Positions 58,527-64,000 of a stretch of DNA of 64,000 bases are shown one piece after another (position 1 is the stretch's first letter; each line of letters begins with the position of its first letter). The stretch is from an uncultured Bacilli bacterium. Its GTDB lineage: Bacteria > Bacillota_I > Bacilli_A > RF39 > UBA660. The position numbers were made by a program, and so were the translations under genes. The notes under the pieces were generated by a model, which made no database searches, had not been told where the DNA came from, and saw only the letters and a list, made by a program, of their open reading frames with translations. The stretch is from contig CALVJR010000001.1 of the NCBI GenBank assembly GCA_944332295.1, forward strand, positions 64,585-128,584. The letters run 5' to 3'.

Positions 58527-58555
58527 TTGTCAATTGTAAAAAAACAAGATAAAAT
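58527..58555 (+). promoter_or_regulatory. Promoter of the SipW-associated operon
   Basis: TTGTCA (58527-58532), 17-nt spacer, TAAAAT (58550-58555), about 70 nt upstream of the first gene. Confidence 0.6.
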
Positions 58556-58624: not shown

Positions 58625-59329
58625 ATGGCAATTAATACAGTAAACGTAGAAGCGGAACGAATCTACAAGAAAAAAGTTTTCTCAAAATTAGTAAAAATCG
58701 CGTTCTTACTATTAATTATATTTTTATCTATTGTTTATTTATTTTTGTATATCGTCTACGATGGTGGAAGATTTACCGTATCTTTAGATAAAAATATGTC
58801 CAATAGAAAGAATGTATATTTATCAGAAGATGGAAAAAAGAAATCAAAAACCAGGCAGTTATCAGCAGACACCATAGATTATATGGATAACATTTCAATA
58901 AAGTGGCTTCCTGAAAATATTGATACCGAAGCAACAGGTGCTCATAATGGAGATAACTACATAGCTTATACATTTTATGTTGTAAATGCTGGAGAAGAAC
59001 AAGTACATTATTGGTATGAAGTAGATATAGATGATACAATAAAGAATGTAGATGAAGCTATTCGCATTATGATTTATAGAAATGGAAAACCTACGGTCTA
59101 TGCCAAAAAGAGTAAGGTTACCAATAAAAAGGAACCTGGTACAAAGAAATTTGTATCAAAAGACATAGCTGTTTTGGAACAAAGAAAAAACTTGAAACCA
59201 GGCAGCAAAGATCGCTTTACTATTGTTGTATGGATAGAAGGCGATGATCCAGAATGTAAAAATGACCTACTAGGTGGGGAAATTAAAATGCATATGGATA
59301 TCACAGAAGAACATATAGCAAAGAAATAA
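58625..59329 (+). CDS. Membrane-anchored secreted protein, paralog of the downstream putative fibre subunit
   Basis: 234 aa with an N-terminal anchor (IAFLLLIIFLSIVYLFLYIV) and a beta-rich domain ending ...RFTIVVWIEGDDPECKNDLLGGEIKMHMDI. The next protein shares this motif. Confidence 0.75.
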   Translation: MAINTVNVEAERIYKKKVFSKLVKIAFLLLIIFLSIVYLFLYIVYDGGRFTVSLDKNMSNRKNVYLSEDGKKKSKTRQLSADTIDYMDNISIKWLPENIDTEATGAHNGDNYIAYTFYVVNAGEEQVHYWYEVDIDDTIKNVDEAIRIMIYRNGKPTVYAKKSKVTNKKEPGTKKFVSKDIAVLEQRKNLKPGSKDRFTIVVWIEGDDPECKNDLLGGEIKMHMDITEEHIAKK

Positions 59330-59344
59330 TAAGGAGTGAGAAAA

Positions 59345-60367
59345 ATGAAAAAAGAAGAAAAGCAAAAAAAGAAAAAAAGAAAAATATTGTTATCATTAAT
59401 TATGATATTATTTGTAGGAGTTGTGTTAACAGCCTCAACTTATACATGGTTCACTGCCAATAGAACAGTTACTGTTGACCAACTAGATGTTAATGTTTCT
59501 ACTTCTACAGGTTTACAGATTTCAGTAGATGCTACAAACTGGAAAACATTAATTACAAAAGATGATATTTTAGGAGCACAAGCAAATTACACAAATGCAG
59601 TAAACCAAGTACCAGCTGGACAAACAACACCAGTATCATCAATCGGAGAAGTAGACCCTGCTACAGGTTTTATAAAAATGTTCAAAGGTGAACTTGTTAA
59701 TGATGAAGAAGAAGGTCATTTAGTATTATCTGCAGAACAATCAACAGAAACAAATGGTACAACAGGTGACTTTATTGCATTTGACTTATTCTTCCAAACA
59801 AATGAAGCAATGGAAATTCGTCTAACTTCTAATTCAAATGTAGTTGCTGGAGCAACAGATACATCAATTGAAAATGCTGCACGTGTTGCATTTATACCAC
59901 AAGGTCATGCAGAAGCAGGTACTGCACCAGCTGAAATTCAAGCATTAAAAGCAGCTGACTCAACTGAAGTAAAAATCTGGGAACCAAACTTCGATGTTCA
60001 TACAGCATCAGCAGTAAATAATGCTTGGGATAGTTATCAATTAAGAACACAACAAACAGGAGCAACAAGATTGAAATATTATGGAGTAAAAGCAGATATT
60101 CCTACTGGAGCAAAAATTCCTGTTAACTCTCAAGATCCAACATATTTTGCAGATATGGATACAACATTAGCAGATAGATTACTTTCAACACCAGAATCAG
60201 GAATTCCAACAGATGATTACTTAGAAGTATTAAGCTTAGAAGCTGGAGTTACAAAAGTTAGAATTTATATGTGGGTAGAAGGACAAGATGTAGACTGTGA
60301 AAACTATGCATCAGGTGGAGATTTAGCTTTCAACTTACAATTTACTTCATTAGAAAATGCAGGATAA
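59345..60367 (+). CDS. Secreted T/A/Q/N-rich protein with SipW-cognate-like signal peptide (putative TasA-like fibre subunit)
   Basis: Lys-rich n-region, h-region ILLSLIMILFVGVVL, then TASTYTWFTANRTVTVDQLDV. C-terminus ...VRIYMWVEGQDVDCENYASGGDLAFNLQF. ATG 59345 lies 8 nt after AAGGAG. Confidence 0.75.
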   Translation: MKKEEKQKKKKRKILLSLIMILFVGVVLTASTYTWFTANRTVTVDQLDVNVSTSTGLQISVDATNWKTLITKDDILGAQANYTNAVNQVPAGQTTPVSSIGEVDPATGFIKMFKGELVNDEEEGHLVLSAEQSTETNGTTGDFIAFDLFFQTNEAMEIRLTSNSNVVAGATDTSIENAARVAFIPQGHAEAGTAPAEIQALKAADSTEVKIWEPNFDVHTASAVNNAWDSYQLRTQQTGATRLKYYGVKADIPTGAKIPVNSQDPTYFADMDTTLADRLLSTPESGIPTDDYLEVLSLEAGVTKVRIYMWVEGQDVDCENYASGGDLAFNLQFTSLENAG

Positions 60368-60381
60368 AAAATAAAACAACA

Positions 60382-60403
60382 AGGCCTTCTAAGAAGGTCT
60401 TTT
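60382..60403 (+). terminator. Weak intrinsic terminator/attenuator after the putative subunit gene
   Basis: AGGCCTT-CTAAG-AAGGTCT (7 bp with one G-U pair) followed by TTTATAAT. Confidence 0.45.
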
Positions 60404-60421
60404 ATAATATTAGGAGGGTTT

Positions 60422-60523
60422 ATGGATAATACAAAAGAAATATTAGAATTGTACCAACAAATCGAAAAACATATTCGTTTTCTAGAAAGCAATATAATAA
60501 GTGAGGAAGAGCAGGATGACTAA
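60422..60523 (+). CDS. 33-aa acidic helical micro-protein (MDNTKEILELYQQIEKHIRFLESNIISEEEQDD)
   Basis: Not in the ORF track. AGGAGGG lies 3-4 nt upstream of the ATG (short spacing). Its stop overlaps the next start (ATGACTAA), suggesting translational coupling. Confidence 0.45.
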   Translation: MDNTKEILELYQQIEKHIRFLESNIISEEEQDD

Positions 60524-62171
60524 TGAATTACAAGAACAAATAAAAAAAGAAATAGAAGTAAATGAAAATCATATTAATAACTTCCCATTAGAAACAGAAA
60601 CGGGAACAAAAAAGATGAAAGAGAAATTTCGTCGTAATGCAGTAAAAGAACGAAATGCTTATATAGAAAAAGAGTTAACTAAATTCCAAGAATATCAAAG
60701 AAATACATATCAAGTACTAGATAACTATGTACAATCTAATAAACCAGAAGATAAGAATAACCAATATAACGAAGAACAACAAAAACTAGAAGAATTGTTA
60801 AAAATACTCCCTTTAACAAATGATAAGATATCATTAGAAATGAAATTAGGATATGCTCATATCTTTTATGAATTATCAGAAGAAGCAAGTGCATCTTTAA
60901 AAGTAATCAATTCATGTATTTTAGATTTTATAGAAAAAATGAAAAGTGCACAAATTGAATTAACAATAAATAATTTCAACTATAGTCCATTTACATTATC
61001 ATATATGAGCGCATTATTAAAGAACAAAGATCAAGAAAACTTTGATGATCTTATGCAAGAAAGCTTTAAAAACATCTACTGGGAATGTCCTGAAATAATC
61101 ATGCATATAAAAAGAAATTTATTATATATAGTAAAGAAAAATTATCAAAAATTAAAAGAATATAGCCACACCCTAGGTACCAAAGTAGTGGCAGAAAAAA
61201 ACTTAACCATAAATACAGTTGAAAATGTATATCAAAATACAAGAAGCGAGCTAGAAATAAAAAAAGCAAAAGATGAATATAATAATCTTTACTTATTTTT
61301 AAATAAAAATAAAAATATAGATGATTATATAGAAGGAGCACCTTTACGAAATAAAAGTTTTAATCACTTAGTAATAAAAGAAACATATCAAGACTTAACA
61401 CCAGCGGAAAAAGAAGTTTTTGACAGAGAAATAATTAATTTAGGAAACCATTTACAAGTATTAAAAGAATATTATCGTTATGAAAGTATTGTAAAAGATC
61501 TAATTGAAAGATTTAAGAAAAAAGAAGAGTCAAAAGCAAAGTATATAACGAAAGAAAAAGAAATAGAAACAGAAGAAAAAGCAAGAGAAAAATTGTATAA
61601 GGACTATCAAAAAGCAAATGGTATTGGTCTATTTGCAAGAAAAAATGAAACAAAACAAGCGGAAATCAAAGTAAAAATGAAAGAACAAATCAATAAATTA
61701 GATAAACTATATCAAGAACTAGAAGACTTAGAAATTGATATTAAAATTGCAGAAAATCTAACAGAAGGAAGTAGCATATATGATGCTTTAATTACCAGTT
61801 TAAGTTCTTATACTTATATTGAAAAAGTAATGATAGAAAAATTTAAAGATATTGATGTAGATTTTCACTTAGCTAATTATGTAAAAGAGTATTTAGACTT
61901 TATTTATAATCCAAATGCAGATTTCTTAAGAAAGATAACAGTATTACTAGATTATGATATAGCAGAAGTAATATCAGAAAAATATGAATTATTAGGAATT
62001 CATCTGGATAAAGAAGAAATAAGCCCTGATTCGATTGATAGTGAAATACAAACAGTAAATGTTGTAATACTAGTAAATAATATTAAGGCATCAAATATGT
62101 CCCTTGATCAAATGAAATTAATCTGTGACATCAATAAGATTGACTATAAAATAGAAGAAGAAATTTTATAA
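60516..62171 (+). CDS. 551-aa cytoplasmic, largely helical/coiled-coil protein of unknown function
   Basis: No TM or signal peptide; long Glu/Lys heptad-like stretches. ATG 60516 lies 6 nt after GAGGAAG; the tracked GTG 60501 is an alternative. Confidence 0.75.
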   Translation: MTNELQEQIKKEIEVNENHINNFPLETETGTKKMKEKFRRNAVKERNAYIEKELTKFQEYQRNTYQVLDNYVQSNKPEDKNNQYNEEQQKLEELLKILPLTNDKISLEMKLGYAHIFYELSEEASASLKVINSCILDFIEKMKSAQIELTINNFNYSPFTLSYMSALLKNKDQENFDDLMQESFKNIYWECPEIIMHIKRNLLYIVKKNYQKLKEYSHTLGTKVVAEKNLTINTVENVYQNTRSELEIKKAKDEYNNLYLFLNKNKNIDDYIEGAPLRNKSFNHLVIKETYQDLTPAEKEVFDREIINLGNHLQVLKEYYRYESIVKDLIERFKKKEESKAKYITKEKEIETEEKAREKLYKDYQKANGIGLFARKNETKQAEIKVKMKEQINKLDKLYQELEDLEIDIKIAENLTEGSSIYDALITSLSSYTYIEKVMIEKFKDIDVDFHLANYVKEYLDFIYNPNADFLRKITVLLDYDIAEVISEKYELLGIHLDKEEISPDSIDSEIQTVNVVILVNNIKASNMSLDQMKLICDINKIDYKIEEEIL

Positions 62172-62271: not shown

Positions 62272-63528
62272 ATGAAAACAGCAAAAAAAGTAGTAAAATC
62301 AATTGGTTATTTATTTGTTGGAATGCTCGTTGCTCTATGCATATATACATTTATCGCAACAGATATCTTTAAAAAAGATTATGCCAATGTTTTTGGATAT
62401 ACGTATTTCGTAGTAGCAACTGGCTCTATGTCCGGAACAATTGAAGTAAATGATGTAGTAATTGTCAAACTAGGACAAGATGTAAATGTCAACGATGTAA
62501 TTACTTATCAGGGAGAACAAGGCGAGTTTATTACACATAGAGTAGTAAAAAAGATAGGAAATCAAATTATTACCCAAGGTGATGTAAATAATACAGAAGA
62601 TGATCCTATTACAAAAGATGATGTAGTAGGAACAGTAAAATTAGTAATATCTCCAAGCTCAGTATTAAAATTAATTGCAGTTTTACTGATTGTCTTTATA
62701 CTATTAGCTTTTCTTAATTTTGATAAAATCTTTAAGAAATTTGTAATTGGAGAAGACACAAATACGAAAAAGACAGTAAAAGGCAGTGTACCAGAAGAAT
62801 TATTTACAACAACACCAGTCAAAAAAGAAGAAAAGTCAACCGGAAACACAGTAAATATTCCAATCAGTGAAGTCTTACAAATTCAAAAAGACCAAGAACT
62901 AGCAGAGGTAGAAGATGAAATAGAAGTTCTAGAAGTAGAAGATATTATTGATATTGATGATAATAATATTGTAAGAAAAGAAAGAAATAGTGCCAAAGAG
63001 AAAGAAAAAGAACTTCTAGAGCAAGTCCTAAACTTACTAAGAATTAAAAATGATACGTTAACAATTACTAAAATGAACAAAAAATGGTTAACGAAATATC
63101 AATATGTCTATAAATTAGCGCAAATTTTGTCAATGGGAGATACGAAAGAATTAGAAGAGACAATAATGCATCCTACATTTAAAGAAATTTATGACTATGA
63201 TTTAGAACGTGCAGGACTATATGAGAATCTAAGAAATAAAATCTATGAAATGCCAATCTATGTATTCTTAAGAATCTTAACATTTGCTATTCTTTATAAC
63301 GATCCAACATTTTTTGATGGAGTATATAAAATATTAAAATACAAAGTTCAAATTGATAAAGATAGTCATTTTAAAGAAATAAAGAAAAATGACACTTATG
63401 CTAAAAAACAAATACGTTCTCTAATAGCATTTATGCAAAAAATATCAATTAAATTTGATAATAAAAAAGTATTTGAACTAGAACGTATAGAACGATATGT
63501 AAAACTAAAAAATTATGTAAATCATTAA
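62272..63528 (+). CDS. sipW: Archaeal/ER-type signal peptidase I (S26B, SipW-like) with ~270-aa C-terminal extension
   Basis: TM1, catalytic Ser context VVATGSMSGTIEVNDVVIV, His context EFITHRVV, QGDVNNTEDDP, and a second TM (VLKLIAVLLIVFILLAFL). An acidic linker and a helical domain not found in typical ~190-aa SipW proteins follow. Confidence 0.85.
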   Translation: MKTAKKVVKSIGYLFVGMLVALCIYTFIATDIFKKDYANVFGYTYFVVATGSMSGTIEVNDVVIVKLGQDVNVNDVITYQGEQGEFITHRVVKKIGNQIITQGDVNNTEDDPITKDDVVGTVKLVISPSSVLKLIAVLLIVFILLAFLNFDKIFKKFVIGEDTNTKKTVKGSVPEELFTTTPVKKEEKSTGNTVNIPISEVLQIQKDQELAEVEDEIEVLEVEDIIDIDDNNIVRKERNSAKEKEKELLEQVLNLLRIKNDTLTITKMNKKWLTKYQYVYKLAQILSMGDTKELEETIMHPTFKEIYDYDLERAGLYENLRNKIYEMPIYVFLRILTFAILYNDPTFFDGVYKILKYKVQIDKDSHFKEIKKNDTYAKKQIRSLIAFMQKISIKFDNKKVFELERIERYVKLKNYVNH

Positions 63529-63543
63529 AAGGAGGGAAATGCG

Positions 63544-64000
63544 GTGAAGAAGTTAGAATTAAGAAATTCTGCAATCATAAAAATATCATGTGTCTTCGCC
63601 ATAGTAATTGCTAGTTTTGCGATTATTAATCTCTTCACTGCAACAACAACTCTAAGTAATATTGCCGAAGTCTGGGATGGAGTAGAAGTAGCTACTTCAT
63701 TTTCTGCTGGTAATGGAACGAAAGAAAATCCCTACCAAATAGCAAGTGGAAGTGAACTTGCCTATTTAAAAAAGATAGTAGAAGAAAATCTATTCACAGA
63801 CTTAAAAGAAAAATATTTTGTATTAGCAAATGATATTGACCTAGGAGGTCATGTTTGGCAAGGAATTGGAACAAACAACATAGAAAACCAATTTACAGGA
63901 CATATAGATGGACAAGGATATTCTATTAAAAATTTTAAAATAGAAACACCAACAGTAATAAATAATGTAGATTATTATAGTTTTTTTAACACAGTAGCTG
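63544..64000 (+). CDS. Large surface protein, N-terminal part (3' end beyond window)
   Basis: GTG 63544 lies 7 nt after AAGGAGGG and the frame stays open to the window end. N-terminal anchor IKISCVFAIVIASFAIINLF. Then GTKENPYQIASGSELAYLKKIV...YFVLANDIDLGG..W.GIG....FTGHIDGQGYSIKNF, typical of the start of large beta-helix/GLUG-type surface proteins. Confidence 0.7.
   Translation, partial: MKKLELRNSAIIKISCVFAIVIASFAIINLFTATTTLSNIAEVWDGVEVATSFSAGNGTKENPYQIASGSELAYLKKIVEENLFTDLKEKYFVLANDIDLGGHVWQGIGTNNIENQFTGHIDGQGYSIKNFKIETPTVINNVDYYSFFNTVA

What the first reader, a model, noticed from the sequence alone, without database searches (positions are those of the whole stretch)
58625..60367. Two adjacent secreted proteins share a C-terminal W-[IV]-E-G-x-D-x-x-C-x-N...G-G-[DE] strand motif
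Protein 1 ends RFTIVVWIEGDDPECKNDLLGGEIKMHMDI. Protein 2 ends VTKVRIYMWVEGQDVDCENYASGGDLAFNLQF. The order of elements is the same in both: hydrophobic strand, WxEG, acidic residues, the single Cys, Asn, GG[DE], then alternating hydrophobic residues. This argues for a shared fold despite otherwise low similarity, like major and minor/anchor subunit pairs such as TasA/CalY or TasA/TapA. Protein 1 keeps an uncleaved-looking TM anchor, whereas protein 2 has a cleavable-type N-terminus. That would fit an anchor/nucleator plus a polymerising subunit.
Basis: seen in the sequence. Interest (0 to 1): 0.6.

Follow-up and report, generated by a model that had tools for sequence, protein, structure and literature searches.

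The report
Paralogous anchor and fibre-subunit pair
Two neighbouring, unannotated surface proteins of an uncultured gut bacterium are distant copies of one another, one membrane-anchored and one secreted, and they most likely form the base and shaft of a cell-surface fibre built by a widespread, barely described gene cluster.

Summary
Both C-terminal strings are present as quoted. The motif W-x-E-G-x-D-x-x-C-x-N…GG is invariant in 78 orthologues of protein 2 (P2) and 66 of protein 1 (P1). It is the most conserved 15-residue stretch in each family.

With narrow profiles, similarity stops at about 33 columns. With deep profiles, P1 and P2 align over 123 columns (hhalign 97.9 %, E 6e-13). A second central block is significant on its own (E 4e-5). 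The two AlphaFold models show the same order of strands there. P1 and P2 are therefore remote paralogues that share a beta-sandwich core.

P2 carries a TasA-type (SipW-cognate) signal peptide. P1 has only an N-terminal membrane helix. Neither mature domain matches TasA by Pfam, by profile or by Foldseek.

The pair is adjacent in 60 of 60 sampled relatives. In distant Firmicutes it lies beside S26 signal peptidases, a membrane-anchored McrB-like GTPase, a DUF2357 (McrC-like) protein and often an EAL protein. This layout matches the "CoCoPALM" locus type, which was named in 2024 but never described.

Most likely P1 is the anchor or assembly factor and P2 the polymerising subunit. Polymerisation was not tested.

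This scan has noted the same pair in other genomes.

The parts
58527..58555 (+). Promoter-like site TTGTCA-17-TAAAAT, about 70 nt upstream of P1
   Evidence: Consensus scan, 10 of 12 matches. The number of sites in the region is not above the shuffle expectation, so this is only a candidate.
58625..59329 (+). P1: 234-aa signal-anchored protein with a short basic cytoplasmic N-terminus, one TM helix and an extracellular beta-sandwich
   Evidence: ORF. No Pfam or NCBIfam family. AF2 pLDDT 84.5. The family has 1127 clusters at 50 % identity with E<=1e-3.
58688..58759 (+). P1 transmembrane helix (residues 22-45), preceded by a K/R-rich segment, so N-in and C-out. No TasA-type cleavage motif follows it.
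   Evidence: Sequence. AF2 helix 2-46. The hhalign match to TasA-like signal peptides is seen for P2 only.
58946..59095 (+). P1 central shared block (residues 108-157: NGDNYIAYTFYVVNAGEEQVHYWYEVDIDDTIKNVDEAIRIMIYRNGKPT)
   Evidence: Aligns to P2 142-193. It is significant alone: hhalign 70.6 %, E 3.9e-5. The same block gives a weak match to TasA-like proteins (62 %, E 7.5e-5).
59207..59305 (+). P1 C-terminal hairpin carrying the motif (residues 195-227: KDRFTIVVWIEGDDPECKNDLLGGEIKMHMDIT)
   Evidence: AF2 shows strand 195-205, a loop (pLDDT about 60) and strand 221-230. It is the most conserved window of the family. hhalign of the C-terminal pieces gives 97.7 %, E 2e-12.
59336..60367 (+). P2: secreted 340/343-aa protein (probable start ATG 59345). 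It has the same core as P1 plus two large insertions.
   Evidence: ORF. SD and ATG. AF2 pLDDT 90.6. No Pfam or NCBIfam family. 1665 clusters at 90 % identity.
59435..59461 (+). SipW-cognate-type signal motif S-T-Y-T-W-F-T-A-N (residues 34-42). The inferred cleavage site is T37|W38.
   Evidence: hhalign 95 %, E 2e-8 to the signal region of PF12389-positive proteins. Those proteins align with Bacillus TasA at 98.8 %. Mature TasA starts at A28 of GGTWA|AFND in PDB 8AUR. AF2 pLDDT is below 50 for residues 33-41. The cleavage position is an inference.
59759..59914 (+). P2 central shared block (residues 142-193: TTGDFIAFDLFFQTNEAMEIRLTSNSNVVAGATDTSIENAARVAFIPQGHAE)
   Evidence: hhalign alignment. 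AF2 strands 147-155 and 159-163, helix 178-181 and strand 182-192 correspond to P1 strands 112-121 and 127-137, helix 143-145 and strand 146-152.
60248..60346 (+). P2 C-terminal hairpin carrying the motif (residues 305-337: VTKVRIYMWVEGQDVDCENYASGGDLAFNLQFT)
   Evidence: AF2 shows strand 304-315, a loop and strand 329-337. It is the most conserved window of the family.
60383..60405 (+). Terminator-like hairpin GGCCTTC-TAA-GAAGGTC followed by TTTTAT, directly after P2
   Evidence: Sequence. The palindrome was picked up by the scan.
60501..62171 (+). 556-aa helical, charged protein without a TM segment. It is conserved after P2 in 73 of 80 loci.
   Evidence: ORF. Synteny. No family match.
62272..63528 (+). 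SipW-like (S26B-type) signal peptidase with a long C-terminal extension
   Evidence: NCBIfam SipW NF046067 at E 1.2e-11, which is below the equivalog cut-off, and TIGR02227 at 2.5e-5. Conserved in 62 of 80 loci.
63544..64000 (+). Start of a 2694-aa GG-repeat (beta-helix-like) giant surface protein that runs past the window end
   Evidence: Genome read-out. Conserved in 52 of 80 loci.

Best explanation
P1 and P2 are remote paralogues. They share an extracellular beta-sandwich core of about 120 residues, and they work together in a cell-surface fibre (pilus-like) system that depends on signal peptidases. P2 is the exported, abundant and variable subunit. It is inserted by Sec and cut by one of the locus's SipW-type peptidases at the T-Y-T|W-F-T-A-N motif. 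The freed N-terminal strand is then used to link subunits, probably by donor-strand complementation as in the TasA superfamily. P1 is the minimal, much more conserved paralogue. It stays in the membrane through its uncleaved N-terminal helix and serves as the base, nucleator or assembly factor for P2. The shared C-terminal hairpin is a strand, an acidic loop E-G-x-D-x-x-C-x-N/D..GG and a final strand. It is the common interaction element, probably a Ca2+-binding loop or the edge that receives the partner strand. That would explain why it is the best-conserved part of both proteins. Shown here: homology of the cores, conservation, topology signals, the TasA-type signal of P2, and strict genomic pairing with each other and with the peptidases. 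Inferred: the cleavage site, polymerisation, metal binding, and the anchor versus assembly-factor role.
For: Homology: hhalign of P2 (RF39 plus clostridial) against the broad P1 profile gives 97.9 %, E 6e-13 over 123 columns. An independent clostridial P2 set against P1 gives 98.1 %, E 9e-14. The central block alone gives E 3.9e-5 and the C-terminal block alone E 2e-12. Reversed and shuffled controls are far lower. AF2 models (pLDDT 90.6 and 84.5) show a TM helix followed by a beta-sandwich, with matching element order in the aligned blocks. The P2 signal peptide matches TasA-like signals at 95 %. The cleavage motif lies in the only segment with pLDDT below 50. The best PDB fold matches, though weak, are TasA-superfamily donor-strand filaments: P1 to AbpA 7UEG (E 2.4e-4, prob 0.93) and FimA variants, and P2 to the Saci_0406 thread 7PNB (E 0.076). 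Pairing: P1 and P2 are adjacent in 71 of 80 species loci and lie on the same contig in the five others checked. They are adjacent in 60 of 60 class-sample loci. In distant metagenome loci 31 of 39 have a P2-family gene nearby, and 61 of 62 have a SipW-like peptidase and the McrB-like ATPase downstream of P1. P1 is more conserved than P2: 44-93 % identity against 46-68 % over the same loci. That fits a buried or machinery role for P1 and an exposed shaft for P2. One family member is a fusion of an S26 signal peptidase with a P1 domain. A terminator-like hairpin follows P2. An EAL (c-di-GMP) gene precedes P1 in clostridial loci. A giant adhesin-like protein and small TasA-like proteins share the cluster. 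The literature describes TasA/BsaA operons with several paralogues and membrane-anchored oligomers (PMC11580942) and Ca2+ combined with donor strands in cannulae (PMC12518558).
Against: No polymer was modelled or observed. Neither mature domain matches PF12389, a Bacillus TasA profile or TasA structures. Foldseek TM-scores are low (0.2-0.4). P1's other hits are generic PA14-type sandwiches. The N-terminal strands of P1 and P2 are not significantly alike (E 0.013 over 10 columns). The motif Cys is replaced by T, A or H in whole lineages, so it is not essential. Its parallel presence or loss in P1 and P2 (175 of 181 loci) rests on only 3-4 independent events.
Confidence: 0.6

Rival explanations
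1. P1 is not a structural base built into the fibre. It is a component of the processing and assembly machinery: a membrane-bound, substrate-like partner of the SipW peptidases and the McrB-like GTPase. It would hold or present P2 through the shared hairpin, acting like a chaperone, usher or peptidase cofactor.
For: P1 is followed directly by an S26 peptidase and the McrB-like/DUF2357 pair in 61 of 62 distant loci. An S26 peptidase-P1 fusion exists. P1 is far more conserved than P2. P1's cytoplasmic tail is long and variable in many lineages.
Against: Nothing distinguishes this from the anchor model with the data available. In RF39 genomes P1 is adjacent to P2, not to a peptidase. No catalytic or binding motif is known.
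Confidence: 0.25
2. P1 and P2 are Ca2+-dependent carbohydrate-binding (PA14-like lectin) surface proteins. The shared acidic loop is the sugar- and Ca2+-binding site, and no polymer is formed.
For: P1's Foldseek hits with E<1e-3 include PA14 inserts of glycosidases (3AC0, 2XVG, 7KNC, prob 0.97-0.99). P2's list contains the PA14 adhesin Cea1A at E 0.7. The loop has consecutive acidic residues (DD in P1) plus Asn.
Against: Pfam PA14 does not match. TM-scores are 0.2-0.3. P2 has Q-D-V-D instead of DD. The TasA-type signal, the dedicated peptidases and the multi-paralogue cluster are typical of fibre systems.
Confidence: 0.08
3. The whole locus is a membrane-associated conflict or defence system derived from McrBC. 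P1 and P2 are its surface sensor or effector parts, not a fibre.
For: The neighbouring ATPase's best PDB matches are E. coli McrB (E 4e-6). Its partner has the McrC N-terminal DUF2357 domain. The CoCoPALM clade sits among CoCoNuT-like restriction systems (PMC11090510).
Against: No nuclease domain was detected in the DUF2357 proteins. The authors themselves link the clade to pilus assembly. The cluster holds a giant adhesin-like protein, EAL genes and TasA-like proteins.
Confidence: 0.06
4. The motif similarity is chance or convergence between unrelated proteins.
For: Shallow profiles give no signal outside the patch (E 0.53).
Against: Deep profiles give E 6e-13 over 123 columns, with two independently significant co-linear blocks. 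Each is the other's best non-self hit in the genome. Controls fail. Adjacency is conserved in every lineage sampled.
Confidence: 0.01

Closest known systems
Bacillus subtilis tapA-sipW-tasA (TasA biofilm fibres; also B. cereus sipW-tasA-calY)
   Same: A dedicated SipW-type (S26B) signal peptidase lies in the locus. The major subunit has the T-[YW]-A-x-F-[STN] SipW-cognate signal. The secreted domain is a beta-sandwich. An accessory protein is encoded next to the major subunit.
   Different: P1 and P2 do not match PF12389 or a Bacillus TasA profile, and Foldseek does not return TasA. P1 is a true paralogue of P2 and is held by an uncleaved TM helix, whereas TapA is a cleaved secreted protein. 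The locus also holds a second peptidase, an McrB-like GTPase, a DUF2357 protein and a 2694-aa giant protein.
[quoted passage not shown]
   Same: The locus has an McrB-like NTPase with an N-terminal TM and coiled-coil part, a DUF2357 (McrC N-terminal) partner and associated signal-peptidase-family genes. The same set flanks P1 in distant Firmicutes and lies 16 kb downstream in this genome.
   Different: The paper only names the clade and defers its description. No pilin-like components, P1/P2 families or shared motif are described in its main text. Whether this locus falls in their clade was not tested phylogenetically.
Clostridium perfringens sipW-bsaA-bsaB-bsaC (BsaA matrix fibres, PMC11580942)
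   Same: It is a SipW-dependent, very divergent TasA-like system with several paralogues in one operon. Its oligomers are attached to the membrane by an unknown anchor, and donor-strand exchange is predicted.
   Different: BsaA is retrievable as a TasA relative by iterative HMM searches and uses an N-E-K isopeptide lock. No such triad was sought or found here, and the P1-type TM paralogue is not reported there.
Archaeal TasA-superfamily filaments: AbpA bundling pili (7UEG), Saci_0406 threads (7PNB), cannulae CanA/CanX (PMC12518558)
   Same: These are the best TasA-superfamily fold matches of P1 (7UEG) and P2 (7PNB). They are jelly-roll subunits joined by donor strands. In cannulae, Ca2+ sites in loops gate assembly, which is a plausible analogue of the acidic motif loop.
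   Different: The matches are weak (E 2.4e-4 and 0.076, TM 0.2-0.3). No sequence similarity was detected, and no Ca2+ site was demonstrated.

Membership tests
TasA/camelysin family (Pfam PF12389, IPR022121) | Match to the PF12389 profile | tested here: not met
   P1 and P2 have no hit at E<=1. The whole genome has no hit in six frames at E<=10.
TasA/camelysin family (Pfam PF12389, IPR022121) | SipW-cognate signal peptide (…G-T-[YW]-A-x-F-[STN]-D/A) | tested here: met
   Met for P2 only. hhalign gives 95 %, E 2e-8 to the signal region of PF12389-positive proteins. Those proteins align full-length with Bacillus TasA at 98.8 %. P1 lacks the motif.
TasA/camelysin family (Pfam PF12389, IPR022121) | Profile-profile similarity of the mature domain to TasA | tested here: not met
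   Against a 120-sequence Bacillus TasA profile, P1 gives E 0.074 and P2 gives E 0.16 (0.055 with the merged P2 profile). There is only a weak central-block match of P1 to TasA-like proteins of related bacteria (62 %, E 7.5e-5).
TasA/camelysin family (Pfam PF12389, IPR022121) | TasA-like jelly-roll fold | tested here: inconclusive
   Both AF2 models are beta-sandwiches. Foldseek lists no TasA chain among the top 50. The nearest superfamily members are 7UEG (E 2.4e-4) for P1 and 7PNB (E 0.076) for P2.
TasA/camelysin family (Pfam PF12389, IPR022121) | Dedicated SipW-type peptidase encoded alongside | tested here: met
   The ORF at 62272-63528 matches NCBIfam SipW at 1.2e-11, below the equivalog cut-off. 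A second copy lies downstream. Distant loci have S26 Pfam hits. Synteny is shown.
TasA/camelysin family (Pfam PF12389, IPR022121) | Polymerisation by donor-strand exchange | not testable with these tools
CoCoPALM locus type (PMC11090510) | McrB-like NTPase fused to an N-terminal TM/coiled-coil segment | tested here: met
   The 513-aa protein's best PDB hits are E. coli McrB (E 4e-6), with Walker A, Walker B and the N-x-x-D region aligned. It has an N-terminal hydrophobic helix followed by a charged helical stretch.
CoCoPALM locus type (PMC11090510) | McrC-like partner with DUF2357 | tested here: met
   PF09823 at E 1.5e-11 in this genome and 1.5e-10 in locus L123.
CoCoPALM locus type (PMC11090510) | Associated signal-peptidase-family genes | tested here: met
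   (61 of 62 distant loci).
CoCoPALM locus type (PMC11090510) | Placement in the authors' NxD-type McrB clade | not tested
   No reference sequences of that clade were available. The phmmer alignment pairs N-N-D-D with McrB's N-T-A-D.
PA14 domain (PF07691) | Profile match and a D-cis-D Ca2+/sugar site | tested here: not met
   There is no Pfam hit. Only low-TM Foldseek matches to PA14 inserts were found.

The most novel reading that the evidence does not exclude
P1, P2, two SipW-type peptidases, the membrane-anchored McrB-like GTPase and its DUF2357 partner together form a previously uncharacterised, NTP-driven pathway for building surface fibres in single-membrane Firmicutes. This would be the 'pilus' half of CoCoPALM. 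In it the TM paralogue P1 couples the cytoplasmic motor and the peptidases to extracellular polymerisation of P2 through the shared hairpin. In many lineages the pathway would be under c-di-GMP (EAL) control.
Probability: 0.25. Interest if true: 0.85.

Novelty: new variant of a known kind. Interest (0 to 1): 0.62.

Why it matters
Neither family has a Pfam or NCBIfam model, yet both are common. P1 has 1127 clusters at 50 % identity. It was found in 63 of 300 genomes sampled from the class and in human-gut and rumen Firmicutes.

Recognising P1 and P2 as an obligate paralogous pair supplies candidate fibre (pilin-like) parts for the CoCoPALM loci, which the literature has only named. It also suggests an answer to how TasA-like fibres are tied to the membrane in wall-poor or uncultured gut bacteria.

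It yields a simple sequence signature for annotating these loci: a TYAWFT leader plus W-x-E-G-x-D-x-x-C.

If the link to the McrB-like GTPase is functional, it would be a new way of assembling surface fibres in monoderm bacteria. That would bear on adhesion and biofilm formation by abundant gut commensals.

Tried and rejected
- **Shallow profiles.** With 21-78 close orthologues (Neff 2-3), hhalign gave only 33-41 columns (38-61 %). Once the motif was removed it gave nothing (E 0.53). This false negative was overturned by adding 92 distant P1 representatives and clostridial P2 relatives.
- **PDB sequence search.** Both profiles found nothing relevant.
- **PF12389 searches.** The own genome, 200 genomes of the class and 400 of the phylum were searched. 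Only N-terminal matches in a few relatives were found, and no Bacillus-type TasA.
- **Cross-hits in locus L180.** Hits between TasA-like proteins and P1/P2 were due to TM or signal regions and were not used.
- **N-terminal strand similarity.** The resemblance between RFTVSLDKN and RTVTVDQLDVN is not significant.
- **Co-evolution of the motif Cys.** Raw concordance between P1 and P2 is 175 of 181 loci. There are only 4 state changes on the tree, and the sign test cannot reach significance. No claim is made.
- **Disulfide-linked polymer.** This was rejected. There is one Cys per subunit, and whole lineages lack it.
- **Direct superposition of the two models.** No tool offers this and the coordinates are not exposed.
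Full report
**Setting**

The window is part of contig C1 of a 1.71-Mb draft genome with about 28 % G+C. Database relatives carry labels such as uncultured Bacilli, Mycoplasmatota or Tenericutes from gut metagenomes.

The finding covers two co-directional ORFs. P1 is 58625-59329 (234 aa). P2 is 59336-60367 (343 aa from GTG). P2 more likely starts at ATG 59345 behind AAGGAG, which gives 340 aa, the length of the identical database cluster. A promoter-like site lies about 70 nt upstream of P1. A 7-bp hairpin followed by TTTTAT lies directly after P2.

**The observation**

Both quoted C-terminal strings are present. BLASTP aligns only 28 residues (36 % identity, E 3e-5).

The resemblance is not chance.
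- The motif regex hits only these two ORFs in the genome.
- Each family's profile finds the other protein as its best non-self hit among 2857 ORFs (E 2.7e-5 and 1.7e-4).
- The motif residues are invariant in 78 P2 and 66 P1 orthologues from different species.
- The motif is the most conserved 15-residue window of each family (0.92).
- Its Cys is the only Cys of the mature protein in 77/78 P2 and 64/66 P1.

**Is it only a patch?**

With profiles built from close orthologues, hhalign aligned 33-41 columns at 38-61 % probability. After the TM helix and the motif were removed it found nothing (E 0.53).

The P1 family turned out to be very large. A profile search of 1.84 billion representative proteins gave 1127 clusters with E<=1e-3 and 729 with E<=1e-10. 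I added 92 of these distant members to the P1 profile, which raised Neff to 6.7. P2 then aligned to P1 at 96.8 %, E 2.8e-10 over 121 columns.

I then added P2-like proteins from distant metagenome loci. These match RF39 P2 at 99.8 %, E 3e-30 over 260 columns.
- The merged P2 profile against P1 gives 97.9 %, E 6e-13 over 123 columns (P2 142-341 to P1 108-231).
- The clostridial set alone against P1 gives 98.1 %, E 9e-14.
- With the TM and the C-terminal motif cut away, the central block is significant by itself (70.6 %, E 3.9e-5, 50 columns). In that block P2 reads GDFIAFDLFF…ENAARVAFIPQG and P1 reads GDNYIAYTFYVVN…DEAIRIMIYRNG.
- The C-terminal piece alone gives 97.7 %, E 2e-12.
- Controls: a reversed P1 profile gives 0.9 %. 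Block-shuffled profiles give 7-37 % over 9-24 columns. The same P2 profile against a Bacillus TasA profile gives 1 %.

**Structure models**

The AF2 models were built from separate alignments. P2 has pLDDT 90.6 and pTM 0.84. P1 has pLDDT 84.5 and pTM 0.76. Both show an N-terminal helix followed by a beta-sandwich.

Within the aligned blocks the elements correspond in order and type.

| P2 | P1 |
|---|---|
| strand 147-155 | strand 112-121 |
| strands 159-163 and 168-171 | strand 127-137 |
| helix 178-181 | helix 143-145 |
| strand 182-192 | strand 146-152 |
| strand 296-301 | strand 181-190 |
| strand 304-315 | strand 195-205 |
| strand 329-337 | strand 221-230 |

P2 carries two insertions, at roughly residues 64-141 and 194-295. 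P1 and P2 are therefore remote paralogues with a common core. The motif is its last hairpin: a strand, an acidic loop of lower confidence, and the final strand.

**Export signals**

P2 begins with a basic stretch, a hydrophobic helix and A-S-T-Y-T-W-F-T-A-N. This region aligns at 95 % (E 2e-8) with the signal peptides of PF12389-positive proteins from related genomes. Those proteins align full-length with a 120-sequence Bacillus TasA profile at 98.8 %, E 7e-17.

Mature TasA in PDB 8AUR starts at A28, that is GGTWA|AFND. By alignment, P2 would be cut at T37|W38. This is an inference. The motif coincides with the only P2 segment with pLDDT below 50 (residues 33-41).

P1 has a K/R-rich N-terminus and one TM helix (residues 22-45; AF2 helix 2-46), followed by Y-D-G-G-R-F-T-V. 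It has no TasA-type motif. It most likely stays anchored N-in and C-out.

**Relation to TasA**

Neither protein matches Pfam or NCBIfam families. PF12389 finds nothing in the whole genome. Profile searches of PDB sequences find nothing.

Foldseek against the PDB gives no hit below E 1e-3 for P2. Its best hit is the Sulfolobus 0406 thread subunit 7PNB at E 0.076. For P1 it gives weak hits to PA14-type sandwiches, to the AbpA bundling pilus 7UEG (E 2.4e-4, prob 0.93) and to FimA variants, all with TM 0.2-0.4.

7UEG and 7PNB are members of the TasA superfamily of donor-strand filaments as defined in PMC12518558. The fold evidence therefore points that way but does not establish it.

The deep P1 profile weakly matches the TasA-like proteins of related bacteria in the central N-x-G block (62 %, E 7.5e-5). 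It does not match Bacillus TasA.

I therefore do not file P1 or P2 as TasA-family members. They work in a TasA-like setting.

**Genomic context**

In 80 species-level loci the order P1-P2-(556-aa helical protein)-(SipW-like peptidase)-(giant protein) is conserved. P1 is present in 71 loci, the helical protein in 73, the peptidase in 62 and the giant protein in 52, with many loci truncated. In five genomes where P1 seemed missing, it lies on the same contig next to a second P2 paralogue.

In this genome the cluster continues past the window. It then contains, in order:
- the 2694-aa GG-repeat protein;
- a signal-peptidase-like protein without an obvious catalytic serine;
- four small proteins with TasA-like leaders (…STYTSYES, …AYASYES, …NTFAWFTY);
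- a 513-aa membrane-anchored AAA+ protein;
- a DUF2357 protein (E 1.5e-11);
- a second SipW-like peptidase.

The AAA+ protein's best PDB matches are E. coli McrB (E 4e-6), with Walker A, Walker B and the N-x-x-D region aligned.

In 60 of 60 loci taken from 300 genomes of the class, P1 has one to three P2-family genes beside it, and most have the McrB-like gene and a SipW-like gene. P1 occurs in 63 of the 300 genomes and 38 of 180 genera, in patches.

In metagenome contigs with 34-55 % G+C from human gut and rumen the layout is P2-like, EAL domain protein (PF00563, 4e-27), P1, S26 peptidase, McrB-like (46-52 % identical to this genome's), DUF2357 protein, S26 peptidase. The P2-like proteins there have a TYAWFT leader and W-L-E-G-x-D-x-x-C about 30 residues from the end.
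- Of 62 loci with at least 3 kb downstream of P1, 61 have the McrB-like gene and a peptidase.
- Of 39 loci with both flanks, 31 have a P2-family gene.
- Many of these contigs are strains of the same species, so the counts overstate independence.

One complete genome of the class (locus L180) combines P1, two P2 genes, three peptidases, the McrB-like/DUF2357 pair and three Pfam-positive TasA-like proteins in one cluster.

Family members also occur as fusions: S26 peptidase-P1 (PF10502, 4e-28), CHASE2-P1, DUF6583-P1 and a tandem-P1 lipoprotein.

**Literature**

Bell et al. (eLife 2024, PMC11090510) mention a large clade of McrB-like GTPases fused to an FtsB-like TM/coiled-coil segment. [quoted passage not shown] The authors name them CoCoPALM and defer them to a later paper. 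No later description is in the library.

The locus here meets the three stated features. The paper's main text does not describe pilin-like components.

PMC11580942 shows that TasA/BsaA relatives are extremely divergent, often occur as several paralogues per operon, and that BsaA oligomers are membrane-attached by an unknown means.

**Mechanism proposed**

Confidence is 0.6 for the overall picture.

P2 is exported, cut by a locus peptidase and polymerised through its freed N-terminal strand. Its insertions form the variable exposed surface: P2 orthologues are 46-68 % identical where P1 orthologues are 44-93 %.

P1 is the minimal TM-tethered paralogue. It nucleates, anchors or hands over P2. 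The shared hairpin is the common docking element, and its E/D/D/N loop is plausibly a Ca2+ site, as in cannulae.

The Cys is not essential, because whole lineages have T, A or H there. Its presence in P1 and in P2 is concordant in 175 of 181 loci. On the P1 tree this reduces to 4 changes and 3-4 independent pairs, so no co-evolution can be claimed.

The main rival is that P1 is a machinery component tied to the peptidase and the GTPase rather than a fibre base. The lectin, defence and chance readings are less likely or refuted.

**Limits**

- No multimer modelling and no model superposition were possible.
- The cleavage site, polymerisation and metal binding are inferences.
- The same pair has been noted by this scan in several other genomes, which agrees with the wide distribution found here.

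Noticed in passing
beyond the window end: G000 C1:140289-142973 (window-equivalent 75705-78389): A membrane-anchored McrB-like AAA+ protein (513 aa; best PDB hit E. coli McrB, E 4e-6) sits next to a DUF2357 (McrC N-terminal) protein with no detected nuclease domain, flanked by SipW-like peptidases. This fits the 'CoCoPALM' locus type, which has been named but not described. The pair follows P1 in 61 of 62 distant Firmicutes loci.
   Followed up: partly
L123:5185-5928 and equivalent genes in L108, L112, L148, L175, L110, L128: An EAL-domain protein (PF00563, E 4e-27) is encoded directly upstream of P1 in clostridial-type metagenome loci. L180 has two large EAL-like genes upstream. This hints at c-di-GMP control of the system.
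   Followed up: partly
window 63544-64000, continuing to window-equivalent 71628: A 2694-aa protein has an N-terminal signal-anchor-like segment and hundreds of residues of G-G-x-N/G-G-S repeats (beta-helix-like). It is conserved after the SipW-like gene in 52 of 80 loci and is probably the adhesin of the system.
   Followed up: partly
proteins P0340, P0380, P0272, P0251 (representatives search): The P1 domain occurs fused to an S26 signal peptidase, to a CHASE2 sensor domain and to DUF6583. It also occurs as a tandem pair behind a lipoprotein signal.
   Followed up: partly
window 59336-59347: The listed GTG start of P2 lies inside the Shine-Dalgarno sequence AAGGAGTG. ATG 59345 is the likelier start (340 aa), matching the database cluster length.
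   Followed up: yes
L098 (G202:C11) 1226-21632: In a related genome all parts form one contiguous cluster of about 21 kb with two P2 paralogues, one next to P1 and one after a TasA-like small protein. This shows that the two halves of this genome's cluster are a single unit.
   Followed up: yes
L193-L211, L213-L221, L234-L238 (class-sample loci): The motif changes by lineage in parallel in P1 and P2. Examples are P1 W-x-E-G-x-D-P-D-T with P2 W-x-E-G-W-D-A-D-A, and P1 W-Y-E-G-E-D-A-D-H with P2 x-E-G-W-D-A-Q-T. Cys is lost in both proteins together, but there are too few independent events to test this.
   Followed up: yes
window 60412-60523: A strong SD (AGGAGGG) and an ATG open a short acidic ORF between the P2 terminator and the 556-aa gene, as another note of this scan also says. 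I did not examine it.
   Followed up: no
beyond the window: window-equivalent 71751-72335: A 194-aa signal-peptidase-like membrane protein has no obvious catalytic Ser-containing motif (a dead paralogue). It is conserved in the merged clusters of other genomes (S194).
   Followed up: no
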